Below are positions 5,838 through 13,463 of a stretch of DNA of 13,560 nt, one piece after another. A program made the position numbers and the translations under genes. Numbering within the stretch: the first letter of the stretch is position 1; the number at the start of each line of letters is the position of its first letter. The notes under the pieces are model-generated. The model saw only the letters and a program-made list of their open reading frames with translations. It searched no databases and was not told where the DNA came from. This DNA comes from an uncultured archaeon (GTDB taxonomy: Archaea; Asgardarchaeota; Lokiarchaeia; Sigyniarchaeales; Promethearchaeaceae). The DNA lies in NCBI GenBank assembly GCA_964426185.1, contig CAYRPF010000080.1, forward strand, positions 1-13,560, in the 5' to 3' direction.

Positions 5838-6395
5838 ATGTCTAAACTAAGAAAACAGTATAAATTTAAAGTTCCATTATTTGGTTCTCAAAATGTGGGA
5901 AAAACTAGCCTTATCATTAGATTCATCAAGCAAACATTCTCCAGTGATTTAAAACAAACCATCGGAACAAATTTCTTGATCAAAGATGTGGAAGTTGATG
6001 GAAATGATGTGCGATTAATGCTTTGGGACATAGGAGGACAAGCTCAATTTTCATCCATGCGAAACATATATTTTAAAGGTTCTCAAGCAGCTATCGGCGT
6101 ATATGACATTACAACTCCAGAATCTCTTTTACGTCTTCCAGGTTGGATAAGTACTCTTAAAAAAGCGGCGGGAGAAATCCCTTTGGTCTTGATAGGTAAT
6201 AAAGTAGATTTAGAAGAAACAGATCGTCGGGTGGCACGATCGGATGCACAAGAACTAGCAGATCGTTTGAATGCAGTGCATTTAGAAACTTCTGCGAAGG
6301 ATGGGACGAATGTCGAGGAGATGTTTATGCAAGTAGCGCGTAAATGCTATGAACGTGCTTTAGAGATCGAGAAGGAACTGGAAGGAATAGAATAA
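5838..6395 (+). CDS. Rab-like small GTPase (Ras superfamily)
   Basis: G1 GSQNVGKTS, G2 QTIGTNF, G3 LWDIGGQ, Rab-like switch II FSSMRNIYFKGSQAAIGVYDIT, G4 GNKVD, G5 ETSAK. No C-terminal CC/CxC/CaaX motif. Confidence 0.95.
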   Translation: MSKLRKQYKFKVPLFGSQNVGKTSLIIRFIKQTFSSDLKQTIGTNFLIKDVEVDGNDVRLMLWDIGGQAQFSSMRNIYFKGSQAAIGVYDITTPESLLRLPGWISTLKKAAGEIPLVLIGNKVDLEETDRRVARSDAQELADRLNAVHLETSAKDGTNVEEMFMQVARKCYERALEIEKELEGIE

Positions 6396-9994: not shown

Positions 9995-10444
9995 ATGCGC
10001 GTTCTGGTAACTGGCTGTTTTGATATTCTACATCCCGGACATATCTTTCTTTTTCAAGAAGCTGCAAAAATAGGTGAAGTTTATGTCATTGTAGCGCGTG
10101 ATTCTACCATTGAAAAATGGAAAAAACAGAGACCGGTAATTCCAGAACTTCAGCGATTGGAAATGATAAAAGCCATCAAATATGTTACTTATGCCACTTT
10201 AGGAAATGAGCACAACAATTTTTTGGAGAAAGCTTTAAGTTTAAAGCCAGATCTGATTTTACTGGGTCCCAATCAAAAAATAAGTATTTCCAAACTAAAG
10301 GAATTATTAAGCGAAAAACATGCAGAACATATCCAAGTTCACAGATTAGAGAAACTTAATACAAAATTTCCTTTGTACAGTTCCAGTTCAATCAAAAAGC
10401 GAATTATTGAACACTACTTACAAGATCAACAAGATCATATTTGA
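9995..10444 (+). CDS. ribL: Archaeal FAD synthase (cytidylyltransferase-like HxGH nucleotidyltransferase)
   Basis: GCFDILHPGH, VIVARD, PVIPE.QR..MI.AIKYV..A.LG, KPD.I.LG..Q, SSS.IK.RI. A TagD-like G3P cytidylyltransferase is a less likely alternative. Confidence 0.75.
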   Translation: MRVLVTGCFDILHPGHIFLFQEAAKIGEVYVIVARDSTIEKWKKQRPVIPELQRLEMIKAIKYVTYATLGNEHNNFLEKALSLKPDLILLGPNQKISISKLKELLSEKHAEHIQVHRLEKLNTKFPLYSSSSIKKRIIEHYLQDQQDHI

Positions 10445-10517: not shown

Positions 10518-13463
10518 ATGTCTGGAAATAATGAAACTCTAGTTAAAACCTTTGATAAACCGCTATATTCAGTAAATCTATCTGAAATTTATGAGATGTT
10601 TCACGTCGATCCTCAAAAGGGTTTATCCGATAAGCAAGTGGAAATAAATTTAACAACTTATGGCCTAAATGAATTAAAAAAGGTTAAACGTTCTTTCTAC
10701 AAAGTAGTTATTGCTCCTATTATAAATCTTTTAATCATTATATACTTGGCAAGCGCGTTTTTGATGTGGATTTTAGGGGACGTACAAAGAACTATACCTA
10801 CCTTTATAATTCTCGGCGCAAATGCATTAGTCGCGATAATACAACAATTACGTGCTGAAAAACAATTACAAGCACTAAAAGAACTCAGCGAAGCTTCTAG
10901 CTATGTATTACGAAATGGAGACTATGTTGAACTTCCTACAAAAGAAATTACTGTAGGAGATATCGTAAGACTTCGGCAAGGAGATAAAATTCCCGCAGAT
11001 TGTAGGTTGATCGAAGCCAGAAATCTCTCAATCGATGAAGCTAGTTTGACTGGTGAATCCGAACCTGTAAAAAAAAGGGTTGATTTTGCAGGTTCCAACG
11101 AATTGGACTTACCCCTTCAAGACCAGAAAAATATGTTATTTTTGGGTACTTTTGTAGCATCAGGGGAAGCAAAAGCAATTGTAGTCCGGGTGGGACCTCA
11201 AACAGAAATCGGTAAAATAAGCACCAAATTGGAAGAAACCAACACGGGAGATATCCCATTACGTAAAAAAATGAATCATATTGCCATCTATTTGGGCATA
11301 GGTGTCATAATTTTGTTGATTTCTTCAGTTATATATAAATTATATATATATTCAATTCAAGGAAGATTCGTGTGGGAGCCAACAATTAGGGAAGGTATAA
11401 TAGATTCCATTGATTTGGGTATGAAAATTATGCCAATTAACCTTCCTTTGTTAACTACCATCGTTCTTTTAACTGGCGTGCTTTCAATGGCACAAAAGGG
11501 TGTTATAGTTCGTGAAATATCTAGAACAGAAAGCTTGGGGAGAGTTTCTGTAGTATGCACAGATAAAACCGGAACACTTACAAAAAATGAAATGACCGTC
11601 GTTCATGTTTGGACCCCTGCAGCAGAATATGAGGTTGAAGGAGAAGGTTATTCATATGAAGGTCGTATTGTAAAAATTCCAGAAAAAGAACAAATAACAT
11701 TGAATTCACATGATACTCATTTATCTTTATTGATAGAATCAGGGTTTTTGAATAATAATTGTCAAATTCAGAAACGGATTGTAAAAACTCTCCGAAAAGA
11801 TCAAAAAGAAAAAGTTACCTATTCAATCATGGGACTTCCAACCGAGGCTGCTTTAAAAGTCATAGGCCGGAAATATCATCCAGATATTGAAGCATTTTAC
11901 TCCAATTATAATTTTGTGTATGAATTTAGCTTTGATTCTTCCATTAAACGGATGAGTAAAATATTTCGCACACCTGAAAACACCACTTTGATGTTTACAA
12001 AAGGCGCCACGGAATGGTTATTGCCACTCTGTTCAAAATATCGAAAGAATGAAGAGGAGCTTACCATGACTGATGAAATGCGGACAGAAATTTTTGAGAA
12101 AATGAAGAGTTTTGCAACAGAAGGATACCGAATACTATCAATAACCTACCGAAAATTGACAAAATCCATACTCACGATAGATTTCGAGGCAGAAAATGCC
12201 CGAGAACATTACGAACAAGATTTAACATTTTTAGGTTTCGTGGTAATCTTAGATCCACCACGTGAAGATGTATATATGGCAGTTAAAGAATGTAAACATG
12301 CTGGAATTAAAGTTATTATGATTACTGGTGATAGCATTGCCACTGGAAAAGCAATTGCCGAAAAAATTGGAATTTATTCGCCAGAACAGGATTTGGCTGT
12401 AGAAGGCGCCGAATTAGAAAATCTTTCGGATGAAGATTTTCAACGCACTACAGTTTATGGTCGTGTATCTCCCGAACATAAGCAAATTATTGTTTCACGG
12501 TTTCAAGCCATGGATAAAATTGTTTCCATGAGTGGGGATGGTGTGAATGATTCATTAGCTCTTTCTATGGCCGATTGTGGGTTAGCAATGGGTATTCAAG
12601 GTACAGAAGTAGCAAAAGAAGCCGCAGATATGATAATTACGGATGATTCATTTAGTACTATTGTAACTGGAATTAGAGAAGGGAGAGGATTATTTATGAA
12701 AATTCGCTCCATTATTTACTTTTTTGTATTAGTTTCCGTTATGGAAGCAATAATTTTGTTTACAAGCACTCTTAACCCTGAAAATCCCGATTTTCAGATG
12801 TGGTATTATTGGCAATTGAATCTAATCTATTTAACGGCTCATTTTTTCCCATCTTTTGGTTTTACTTTCGGAAAAAACGCTCGAACAGTTATGGAAGAAC
12901 CACCCCGAAATTCAGCCGAAATTCTCACACCTAATCTCTTGAAAATACTTGTAATTCAATTAGTTTTAATGGGGGCCGCAATAGCCATCGCCTACTATTT
13001 CTGCATGTTTGATATTATACATGTTAATGATGTAAATTTAAACAATATTGGATATCCAGGATCAATAACTAATCCATATCCTAATTTACCCCCCGAAAAA
13101 GTAGAGATGCTTGTATCACCAGAGATGGTCAAAGCGCGCACCATGGGATTTCTGGTATTATTCATTACAGAATCAGTTATTATGCCTTTGCAAATTCGAC
13201 GGATTAATTATTCGCTGTTAGATTCTTTGAAAGACTTAGGTTGGTTGGAGTTTCTATTTTATATTCCTTCGTTATTAATTTTCGTGATTGGAATATACAG
13301 TCAAGAATTGCAGCAGTTTATGGGTGAAACCTTGAACATTACTTTTTACTTTACAGCATTGAGTTTCTCTGATTGGGTGATTTGTATTTTACTTTGTCTC
13401 CCAAGCACTATTGCGTTTGAAATAATTCGATTTTATGCCAGAAAAAGAAAAGTGTTGTTCTAA
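10518..13463 (+). CDS. P-type ATPase of P2 (cation-transporting, SERCA/PMR1-like) architecture with non-canonical membrane binding site; substrate unknown
   Basis: GLS...YG.NEL, GD.IPAD.R, DEASLTGES, CTDKTGTLT (Asp codon at 11562), F.S..KRMS, KGA, DPPR, MITGD, RVSPEHK, GDGVND, about 10 TM helices. The ATG at 10518 (981 aa) is preferred over the TTG at 10407, which overlaps ribL. Confidence 0.92.
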   Translation: MSGNNETLVKTFDKPLYSVNLSEIYEMFHVDPQKGLSDKQVEINLTTYGLNELKKVKRSFYKVVIAPIINLLIIIYLASAFLMWILGDVQRTIPTFIILGANALVAIIQQLRAEKQLQALKELSEASSYVLRNGDYVELPTKEITVGDIVRLRQGDKIPADCRLIEARNLSIDEASLTGESEPVKKRVDFAGSNELDLPLQDQKNMLFLGTFVASGEAKAIVVRVGPQTEIGKISTKLEETNTGDIPLRKKMNHIAIYLGIGVIILLISSVIYKLYIYSIQGRFVWEPTIREGIIDSIDLGMKIMPINLPLLTTIVLLTGVLSMAQKGVIVREISRTESLGRVSVVCTDKTGTLTKNEMTVVHVWTPAAEYEVEGEGYSYEGRIVKIPEKEQITLNSHDTHLSLLIESGFLNNNCQIQKRIVKTLRKDQKEKVTYSIMGLPTEAALKVIGRKYHPDIEAFYSNYNFVYEFSFDSSIKRMSKIFRTPENTTLMFTKGATEWLLPLCSKYRKNEEELTMTDEMRTEIFEKMKSFATEGYRILSITYRKLTKSILTIDFEAENAREHYEQDLTFLGFVVILDPPREDVYMAVKECKHAGIKVIMITGDSIATGKAIAEKIGIYSPEQDLAVEGAELENLSDEDFQRTTVYGRVSPEHKQIIVSRFQAMDKIVSMSGDGVNDSLALSMADCGLAMGIQGTEVAKEAADMIITDDSFSTIVTGIREGRGLFMKIRSIIYFFVLVSVMEAIILFTSTLNPENPDFQMWYYWQLNLIYLTAHFFPSFGFTFGKNARTVMEEPPRNSAEILTPNLLKILVIQLVLMGAAIAIAYYFCMFDIIHVNDVNLNNIGYPGSITNPYPNLPPEKVEMLVSPEMVKARTMGFLVLFITESVIMPLQIRRINYSLLDSLKDLGWLEFLFYIPSLLIFVIGIYSQELQQFMGETLNITFYFTALSFSDWVICILLCLPSTIAFEIIRFYARKRKVLF

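What the first reader, a model, noticed from the sequence alone, without database searches (positions are those of the whole stretch)
11421..12875. P2-scaffold ATPase with flippase-like TM4 (PINL) and a dismantled cation site: candidate proto-P4 lipid flippase or novel-substrate pump
Seen: the catalytic motifs (TGES, DKTGTLT, KGA, DPPR, TGD, GDGVND) are intact. TM4 reads KIMPINLP (PINL at 11433-11444) instead of AIPEGLP, TM5 reads LVSVME instead of SSNVGE, and TM6 (12813-12851) reads QLNLIYLTAHFFP instead of QLLWVNLVTDGLP. Known: SERCA E309, N768, N796, T799 and D800 bind Ca2+. By my alignment these are I, S, Y, A and H here, and only the E771 equivalent remains. The Glu-to-Ile change in TM4 (PISL) is the hallmark of P4 lipid flippases, which are regarded as essentially eukaryotic and use DGET rather than TGES. 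Inference: an active ATPase that is unlikely to pump Ca2+. It may be an intermediate between ion pumps and flippases, or a convergent case, and it lies near lipid genes. Automated annotation would probably call it a cation ATPase.
Basis: partly seen in the sequence, partly recalled or inferred. Interest (0 to 1): 0.85.

Follow-up and report, generated by a model that had tools for sequence, protein, structure and literature searches.

The report
Asgard pump with rebuilt transport site
This gene encodes an intact ATP-driven membrane pump, built like a calcium pump, from a large undescribed family found mainly in Asgard archaea; its calcium-binding residues are replaced by a different conserved set, so it probably moves another small ion, and a deep kinship with eukaryotic lipid flippases is possible but unproven.

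Summary
Observation confirmed, interpretation partly supported. Gene 10518-13463 (+, 981 aa) has all catalytic motifs and a P2A fold. It belongs to a multi-copy family seen in about 78 of 121 Asgard genomes and 1 of 301 Thermoproteota; its sister is a Thermoplasmatota clade with TM4 PWSFP. This paralogue's subclade adds D299, K303, S740 and Y771. Ile at the E309 position is not a P4 hallmark: P3A proton pumps share it. Other P4 marks (DGET, TM5 Lys, TM6 Asn, profile cut-off) are absent. Trees reject P4 as sister of this gene or its subclade, but the stem of the whole family is a top-two, statistically tied position for P4 (35-54% of unconverged bootstrap trees). Best reading: a pump for H+ or one non-calcium cation (0.55); lipid flippase 0.17. 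No paper describing the family was found in the library searched. The scan noted it before on other genomes and on two paralogues in this one.

The parts
10518..13463 (+). P-type ATPase gene, 981 aa, 10-TM P2A-type layout (ATG start chosen over the in-frame TTG at 10407 because the closest homologues are 980-981 aa)
11049..11060 (+). A-domain phosphatase motif TGES (aa 178-181); P4 has DGET
11412..11426 (+). TM4 outer half with D299 and K303 (K303 at the SERCA A305 position); 100% in the 32-member subclade; D, T, N, S or A in other paralogue groups
11433..11447 (+). Unwound TM4 motif PINLP (aa 306-310): I307 replaces E309, N308 replaces G310, both prolines kept
11562..11582 (+). Phosphorylation motif DKTGTLT (D349)
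12000..12008 (+). N-domain KGA motif (K495 invariant)
12252..12332 (+). P-domain DPPR and TGD motifs
12534..12557 (+). GDGVND motif followed by L680, where P1, P2 and P3 pumps have Pro (98-100%) and P4 and P5 do not
12735..12746 (+). TM5 S740 (N768 equivalent; Asn in 97% of other family members) and E743 (E771 equivalent; invariant)
12828..12851 (+). TM6 Y771 (N796), A774 (T799), H775 (D800; 99-100% His), P778
13170..13172 (+).
9995..10444 (+). Upstream cytidylyltransferase-like gene, the most constant neighbour of this subclade (next to, or within 0.7 kb of, the pump in 9 of 11 loci); substrate not settled

Best explanation
An intact primary pump of an undescribed, mostly Asgard P-type ATPase family that moves one small cation other than Ca2+, either a proton or monovalent ion or a single Mn/Fe/Zn/Mg-type ion (I weigh these about equally), most likely out of the cytoplasm. 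Shown from sequence: a complete Post-Albers engine (D349, TGES, K495, TGD, GDGVND); loss of the site II side chains (E309 to Ile, N796 to Tyr); retention under purifying selection of a polar cluster where SERCA has site I (E743, H775, E885, S740) plus N308 in unwound TM4. Inferred by homology, with no distances measured: these side chains line one central pocket; binding from the cytoplasm triggers phosphorylation of D349; E2P releases the ion outside. K303, paired one turn away with D299, may act as a built-in counter-charge that lets this paralogue dephosphorylate without a counter-ion. Paralogues with Asp, Thr, Asn or Ala at 303 would differ in stoichiometry or ion.
For: Catalytic residues and N308, E743, H775 are invariant, E885 nearly so. 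Purifying selection on TM4-6. The TM5-10 model (pLDDT 88) is closest to P2A: SPCA1 Z 21.9, rmsd 2.0, 219 aligned; SERCA Z 21.6. P4 score lower: ATP8A1 Z 16.4, rmsd 3.8, 8% identity; Neo1 Z 15.9. Two buried Glu and a His are ion- or proton-handling residues, and the P4 references have no acidic residue at either Glu position. A hydrophobic residue at E309 occurs in P3A proton pumps (PMC4937031). It also occurs in human TMEM94/ERMA, whose TM4 has Leu there and where an ion density was modelled as Mg2+ on TM4 carbonyls and a TM5 Gln (PMC13322241; disputed by PMC12134183). Built-in cations are precedented in KdpB and in P1B-2, P3A and P4A pumps (PMC10654040). The Thermoplasmatota sister clade keeps the same Asn, Glu, His, Glu set with Trp in TM4, so the polar set predates the Ile.
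Against: No transport data exist. To my knowledge no characterised P2 or P3 pump has His at the D800 position, so the chemistry is inferred. P3A pumps use Asp there (PMC10654040). Four paralogues per genome with different residues at 303 would also fit different lipid or organic substrates. The neighbourhood gives no ion clue.
Confidence: 0.55

Rival explanations
1. Lipid or amphiphile flippase, either convergent or because the family stem is the prokaryotic sister of eukaryotic P4 ATPases. A headgroup would be held at unwound TM4 by backbone amides and N308, gated by I307, with K303 standing in for the P4 TM5 lysine.
For: I307-N308 resembles P4 Ile-Ser, and some members even read PISIP or PITIP. 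Under LG+C20 PMSF, with the site columns removed, P4+P5 joined the family at 82/84 in one data set. The family stem was the second-best of 81 placements for P4+P5 (delta lnL 1.2, AU 0.75), second-best for P4 alone and best on another backbone. Family+sister+P4 appeared in 54% and 35% of interim bootstrap trees. The P-domain Pro after GDGxND is lost in the family, its sister, P4 and P5, and kept in P1-P3. An Asgard-centred distribution suits a eukaryote-specific family of unknown origin. P4B flippases need no CDC50 (PMC10654040).
Against: TGES not DGET; second Pro kept; no TM5 Lys (P4 references 90%); no TM6 Asn (P4 100%); two conserved acidic residues that P4 lack. TIGR01652 scores 115 bits against a cut-off of 431. 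A P4 HMM scores the family no better than canonical P2 (median 112 vs 102), and only 2 residues are shared exclusively with P4 versus 6 for P3. The placement is unstable: near the root under LG+G4, with P3 once P4B and P5B were added, inside P2 when groups were dropped; 23 of 39 P4 placements are not rejected. Placement beside this gene (AU 0.001), its subclade (0.011) or the PISIP/PITIP clade (0.001) is rejected. Kinship would not prove lipid transport. GpsA is not a conserved neighbour.
Confidence: 0.17
2. Pump or dislocase for another organic substrate (polyamine, small amine, peptide or membrane helix), working like P5 ATPases, with E743 and E885 binding a cationic group.
For: Loss of the gating Glu and N796 could widen the pocket while acidic residues remain. 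The family stem is second-best and not rejected for P5 (AU 0.59). A P5 HMM scores this protein highest in the family (213 bits).
Against: No PP[ED]LP or PPALP. TIGR01657 scores 263 against a cut-off of 618. A canonical P2 scores higher on the same P5 HMM (239). P5 goes with P3 or P1 in most trees. P5 structures rank low for TM5-10 (Z 13-14).
Confidence: 0.15
3. Still a Ca2+ (or Ca2+/Mn2+) pump that uses only a modified site I, as automated annotation implies.
For: Nearest solved relatives and profiles are P2A Ca2+ pumps. E771 and E908 equivalents are kept. Some PEGLP pumps also carry His at D800 (P0207, P0213, P0227, P0228).
Against: E309, N796, T799 and D800 are all replaced, and N768 too in this subclade. 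Known one-site Ca2+ pumps keep site II, the site lost here (own knowledge). The genome has a separate canonical PEGLP pump on contig C92. All P2 family cut-offs are missed.
Confidence: 0.08
4. A degenerate or non-transporting ATPase (decaying paralogue, scaffold, or regulatory partner of another paralogue).
For: Paralogues often lie in tandem in relatives; plant PH1/PH5 is a precedent for a helper subunit (PMC10654040).
Against: Open frame, invariant catalytic residues and strong purifying selection on the membrane site; this gene has no paralogue beside it.
Confidence: 0.05

Closest known systems
P2A Ca2+/Mn2+-ATPases (Listeria LMCA1, human SPCA1, SERCA)
   Same: Best sequence and structure matches (E 6e-114 to LMCA1; whole model Z 31-32 to SPCA1); TGES, 10 TM, two TM4 prolines, E771 and E908 equivalents.
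   Different: No E309, N796, T799 or D800; Asn and His at new positions; K303; below family cut-offs (445 vs 798, 430 vs 703); forms its own clade.
P3A H+-ATPases (AHA2, Pma1, archaeal P3A)
   Same: Hydrophobic residue at the E309 position inside a P-x-x-L-P motif; TGES.
   Different: P3A have Asp at D800 (100% of my references) and no Glu at E771 or E908; 325 bits vs cut-off 615; separate clade.
P4 lipid flippases (ATP8A1/2, Drs2, Neo1)
   Same: Ile then a small polar residue after the first TM4 Pro; Asn at N768 in most family members; no Pro after GDGxND; family stem is one of several tied tree positions for P4.
   Different: DGET, single-Pro PISL, TM5 Lys and TM6 Asn all absent; two acidic residues and a His present; 115 bits vs cut-off 431; lower structural scores.
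TMEM94/ERMA (eukaryotic P-type-like ER protein; Mg2+ pump role disputed)
   Same: TM4 has Leu at the E309 position and both prolines, P-L-L-F-P, like the basal family members' P-L-N-F-P; its two short motifs score like the family and P2, far above P4.
   Different: Degenerate catalytic motifs in ERMA; only 12% structural identity, Z 21 whole and 15 for TM5-10; 48 residues cannot separate the family from canonical P2 as its relative (25.7 vs 27.2 bits).
Thermoplasmatota PWSFP clade (uncharacterised; P0218, L252-L264)
   Same: Sister group (95-99 support); same TM5 Asn and Glu, TM6 His and TM8 Glu.
   Different: Trp-Ser instead of Ile-Asn in TM4; no known function either.

Membership tests
P-type ATPase superfamily | DKTGT, A-domain Glu motif, N-domain Lys, TGD, GDGxND | tested here: met
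   TIGR01494 276 bits vs cut-off 62
P2A Ca2+-ATPases | P2A fold, 10 TM, TGES | tested here: met
P2A Ca2+-ATPases | TM4 PEGL glutamate (E309) | tested here: not met
   I307; Glu in 100% of P2 references, 0% of the family
P2A Ca2+-ATPases | TM6 N796 and D800 | tested here: not met
   Y771 and H775
P2A Ca2+-ATPases | Site I N768, E771, T799, E908 | tested here: inconclusive
   E743 and E885 kept; S740 and A774 differ
P2A Ca2+-ATPases | Curated profile cut-off (TIGR01522, TIGR01116) | tested here: not met
   445 vs 798 and 430 vs 703; cut-offs may also miss some prokaryotic P2A
P2A Ca2+-ATPases | Nests among canonical P2A in a tree | tested here: inconclusive
   Own clade within an unresolved P2A/P3 radiation
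P4 lipid flippases | A-domain DGET | tested here: not met
   TGES invariant
P4 lipid flippases | TM4 P-[IV]-S-L followed by an aromatic residue, one Pro | tested here: not met
   PINLP: Ile shared, Asn not Ser, second Pro kept
P4 lipid flippases | TM5 Lys (ATP8A2 K873) | tested here: not met
   V739; Lys in 90% of P4 references (PMC4937031)
P4 lipid flippases | TM6 Asn (ATP8A2 N905) | tested here: not met
   Y771; Asn in 100% of P4 references
P4 lipid flippases | TIGR01652 cut-off | tested here: not met
   115 vs 431; my P4 references score 1198-1337; 0 of 151 Asgard genomes pass
P4 lipid flippases | CDC50 beta subunit (P4A only) | tested here: inconclusive
   PF03381 in 0 of 151 Asgard genomes, no positive control; P4B lack one anyway
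P4 lipid flippases | Sister-group relationship of the whole family to P4 | tested here: inconclusive
P4 lipid flippases | Lipid-stimulated dephosphorylation and lipid flipping | not testable with these tools
   needs purified protein
P3A H+-ATPases | Hydrophobic residue at the E309 position, two prolines | tested here: met
P3A H+-ATPases | TM6 Asp proton acceptor (AHA2 D684) | tested here: not met
   H775
P3A H+-ATPases | TIGR01647 cut-off and clade membership | tested here: not met
   325 vs 615; P3A form a separate clade at 100
P5 ATPases | TM4 PP[DE]LP or PPALP; TIGR01657 cut-off | tested here: not met
   PINLP; 263 vs 618
P6 ATPases (CtpE) | PEGL kept, N-domain Lys absent | tested here: not met
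   PINLP and invariant K495 against PMC10654040
TMEM94/ERMA | Specific kinship | tested here: inconclusive
   only 48 residues could be compared

The most novel reading that the evidence does not exclude
The family, with its Thermoplasmatota sister, is the closest prokaryotic relative of eukaryotic P4 ATPases and itself flips membrane lipids, using an ion-pump engine (TGES, no CDC50) and an Asn/Glu/His/Lys headgroup site. It would be the first prokaryotic P-type lipid flippase and a living model of the ion-pump-to-flippase transition. The kinship alone, without lipid transport, I put at about 0.25.
Probability: 0.1. Interest if true: 0.92.

Novelty: new variant of a known kind. Interest (0 to 1): 0.6.

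Why it matters
P-type ATPases are classed in six families, and a 2023 review expects more among prokaryotes and lists the origin of lipid flippases as an open question (PMC10654040). Here is a conserved, expanded family in the archaeal relatives of eukaryotes (four copies in this genome) that databases mislabel as calcium pumps. Whatever its cargo, an Asn/Glu/His/Glu site without the TM4 glutamate would be new transport chemistry. An orthologue with the same site residues exists in the cultured Prometheoarchaeum syntrophicum (QEE15990.1, 60% identity), so the question can be tested directly. If the weak tree signal holds, it would supply the missing prokaryotic relative of P4.

Tried and rejected
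P4 pattern scan of viral contigs: six chance hits, none a P-type ATPase; P5 pattern: none. P2C search in Asgard at E 1e-200: nothing, no positive control; a plasmid search with a P2C-like fragment gave no full-length match, so P2C and P2D are missing from my trees. The bacterial promoter and terminator scan was uninformative. A treekit AU test and a full bootstrap run did not finish; I used fixed-backbone placements and interim bootstrap trees instead. The upstream TTG start at 10407 was rejected on homologue length. A lipid-gene operon was rejected: GpsA is absent from all 11 relatives' loci; the archaetidylinositol-phosphate synthase homologue is syntenic in two but lies about 7 kb away on the other strand. 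PISIP/PITIP members as P4 ancestors were rejected (AU about 0.001). No complex prediction was run because no partner is claimed. Five literature searches on Asgard or archaeal P-type ATPases found no description of the family. The library lacks most subscription papers. Russum et al. 2021 (PMC7997004) list a putative Ca2+-ATPase in all five Asgard proteomes, which may or may not be this family.
Full report
WHAT IS THERE. The finding lies inside one gene, 10518-13463 on the + strand, 981 aa. Pfam gives the five usual P2 domains. The named top hits are Lokiarchaeota and Promethearchaeota, including P. syntrophicum QEE15990.1 at 60%, so the genome is an Asgard archaeon of that group (inference from hit names). 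The genome holds four proteins with this kind of TM4 (contigs C80, C9, C34, C40), one canonical PEGLP pump (C92) and one P1B pump (C134).

A FAMILY, NOT A ONE-OFF. All 116 of the top 119 homologues that cover TM4 read P-[IL]-N-[IL]-P. A profile of 100 of them splits Asgard matches into a group at 1050-1530 bits and canonical pumps at 775 or less. Loci fetched from each side of the gap confirmed the motif split. By my count 78 of 121 Asgard genomes, in 12 of 25 families, hold a member; only seven candidates per genome were scored and partial genes can be missed. Outside Asgard I found one member in 301 Thermoproteota genomes (only two candidates scored per genome) and none in 201 Thermoplasmatota. 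A search of 1.84 billion representatives brought up one odd relative, P0218. It belongs to a Thermoplasmatota clade with TM4 PWSFP that is the family's sister in the trees (95-99).

THE SITE IS REBUILT. In SERCA numbering, site II side chains are gone (E309 to I307, N796 to Y771). At site I, E743 (E771) is 100% conserved, H775 (D800) 99-100% and E885 (E908) 97-98%; N308 replaces G310 in 97-100%. The Thermoplasmatota sister has the same TM5, TM6 and TM8 set with Trp in TM4, so that polar set is older than the Ile. The window's gene belongs to a subclade of 32 sequences with D299, K303, S740 and Y771 at 100%; other members have D, T, N or S at 303 (Ala in the basal group) and Asn at 740. Against the same-genus orthologue, TM4 shows 1 amino-acid difference to 24 synonymous ones and TM5-6 shows 2 to 27. 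These are selected residues.

IS IT LIKE P4? I fetched real P4A proteins from eukaryotic metagenome contigs (validated), P4B, P5A and P5B, Asgard P3A and bacterial P1, P2 and P3B references. Ile at the E309 position is not diagnostic: P3A pumps read PVALP or PIALP, as Andersen et al. 2016 state (PMC4937031), and TMEM94/ERMA has Leu there. The P4 references have DGET, one TM4 Pro, TM5 Lys (90%), TM6 Asn (100%) and no acidic residue at E771 or E908; the family has the opposite at each point. The P4 profile gives 115 bits against a cut-off of 431. No CDC50 and no P4 was found in 151 Asgard genomes, without positive controls, and P4B needs no CDC50 (PMC10654040). The AlphaFold models match P2A best: whole protein SPCA1 Z 31.4, Neo1 25.9, ATP8A1 25.6; TM5-10 SPCA1 Z 21.9 at rmsd 2.0, ATP8A1 Z 16.4 at rmsd 3.8. 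It is not a member of P4.

IS IT KIN TO P4? All trees omit the TM4, 5, 6 and 8 site columns. The family is one clade (81-99 support across runs). Under LG+G4, P4+P5 sit near the root. Under LG+C20 PMSF with 44 rows they joined the family plus P0218 at 82/84, unstarred. Dropping groups moved them. With P4B, P5B and more Thermoplasmatota, on columns agreed by two aligners, they went beside P3 at 46-60. On a fixed backbone the P3 stem was best and the family stem second (delta lnL 1.2, AU 0.75), with 14 of 81 positions not rejected; P4 alone and P5 alone gave the same order. With more Asgard rows the family stem was best for P4 by 1.0 lnL, again tied. Interim, unconverged bootstraps put P4 with the family in 54% and 35% of trees. 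Positions inside the crown are rejected: beside this gene AU 0.001, its subclade 0.011, the PISIP/PITIP clade 0.001. The closer look-alike motifs therefore arose within the family. HMM scores and shared residues give no excess similarity to P4. One hint remains: the Pro after GDGxND is lost in the family, its sister, P4 and P5; but P3 also shares 11 of its 17 losses with P4. The P4 stem is 2.4-2.7 changes per site, P2C and P2D are missing, and the site frequencies came from one guide tree. Verdict: unresolved, about one in four.

NEIGHBOURS. A block of Ras-family GTPase, translin, epimerase and cytidylyltransferase-like genes precedes the pump in most loci from the same family. GpsA is present only in the window. 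The archaetidylinositol-phosphate synthase homologue is syntenic in two relatives but about 7 kb away on the other strand. More distant orthologues have other neighbours. The context gives no substrate clue.

HOW IT MOST LIKELY WORKS. Shown: a complete catalytic engine and a conserved polar set in TM4, 5, 6 and 8. From established P-type mechanism: phosphorylation of D349 and dephosphorylation through TGES drive alternating access. Inferred: E743, H775 and E885, with N308 and S740, bind one small cation or proton at the position of SERCA site I; I307 and Y771 fill site II; K303 may supply a fixed counter-charge, as lysines do in KdpB and P4A (PMC10654040). Export is assumed by analogy with P2A and P3A. 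I give this 0.55, a lipid flippase 0.17, another organic substrate 0.15, Ca2+ 0.08 and a non-transporting role 0.05.

NOVELTY. It works like a P2A or P3A ion pump and fails a defining feature of every named family, so I class it as a new variant of a known kind: an undescribed subfamily. No paper on it was found; Palmgren's 2023 review does not mention Asgard. The scan noted the same family on at least two other genomes and on two paralogues in this one; my reading of a rebuilt site was written before I saw those notes. This report contributes the Lys-bearing subclade, the Thermoplasmatota sister, explicit placement tests that leave the P4 link open at the family stem only, and the TMEM94 lead; I saw only the opening lines of the earlier notes and cannot say whether they already covered these points.

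Noticed in passing
L246:8001-10955; L252-L264: Thermoplasmatota P-type ATPase clade with TM4 PWSFP, TM5 Asn and Glu, TM6 His and TM8 Glu; sister to the Asgard family; at least 13 species; apparently uncharacterised.
   Followed up: partly
PDB 9jjk (TMEM94/ERMA) versus G000 contig C34:2826-5660: Human TMEM94 TM4 has the pattern P-L-L-F-P, like the basal family members' P-L-N-F-P. Two short motifs score like the family and canonical P2 and far above P4 or P5. The Asgard family may be worth testing as a relative of TMEM94.
   Followed up: partly
L202, L203, L204, L205, L209, L210 (Asgard family f7): Family members reading PITIP, PISIP, PIMIP or PIAIP. The invariant Asn is relaxed in this lineage; it nests in the crown and P4 placement there is rejected.
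   Followed up: yes
P0207, P0213, P0227, P0228, P0245: PEGLP pumps with His at the D800 position and N796 kept; in the trees they do not group with the Asgard family, so His at this position arose more than once.
   Followed up: partly
e.g. G036:C86, G021:C32, G032:C91, G026:C70: Two divergent family paralogues often lie in tandem in the order; this raises a possible heterodimer. The window's gene has no such neighbour.
   Followed up: no
window:4075-5058 (-): ArsR-type HTH fused to a membrane domain whose predicted fold resembles Yip1-like proteins (TM 0.72 and 0.60), close to a Ras-family GTPase (5838-6395) in several relatives.
   Followed up: partly
window:7074-8075 (+): Bacterial-type NAD(P)-dependent glycerol-3-phosphate dehydrogenase (GpsA) in a block where none of the 11 related loci has it.
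   Followed up: partly
window:69-1487 (-): Fusion of an inositol monophosphatase-family (CysQ-like) domain to adenylylsulfate kinase.
   Followed up: no
G000 contig C40:16308-19157 (-): The PVNIP paralogue gave no GDGxND match and tblastn skips residues 620-708; probably undetermined bases in the assembly.
   Followed up: no
L183-L194, L230-L232: P3A-type pumps above the TIGR01647 cut-off occur in 22 of 121 Asgard genomes, none in this one.
   Followed up: partly
L323:1510-3996: The single PINIP member found in 301 Thermoproteota genomes, beside a gene that looks like undecaprenyl-diphosphatase; transfer or misbinning not tested.
   Followed up: no
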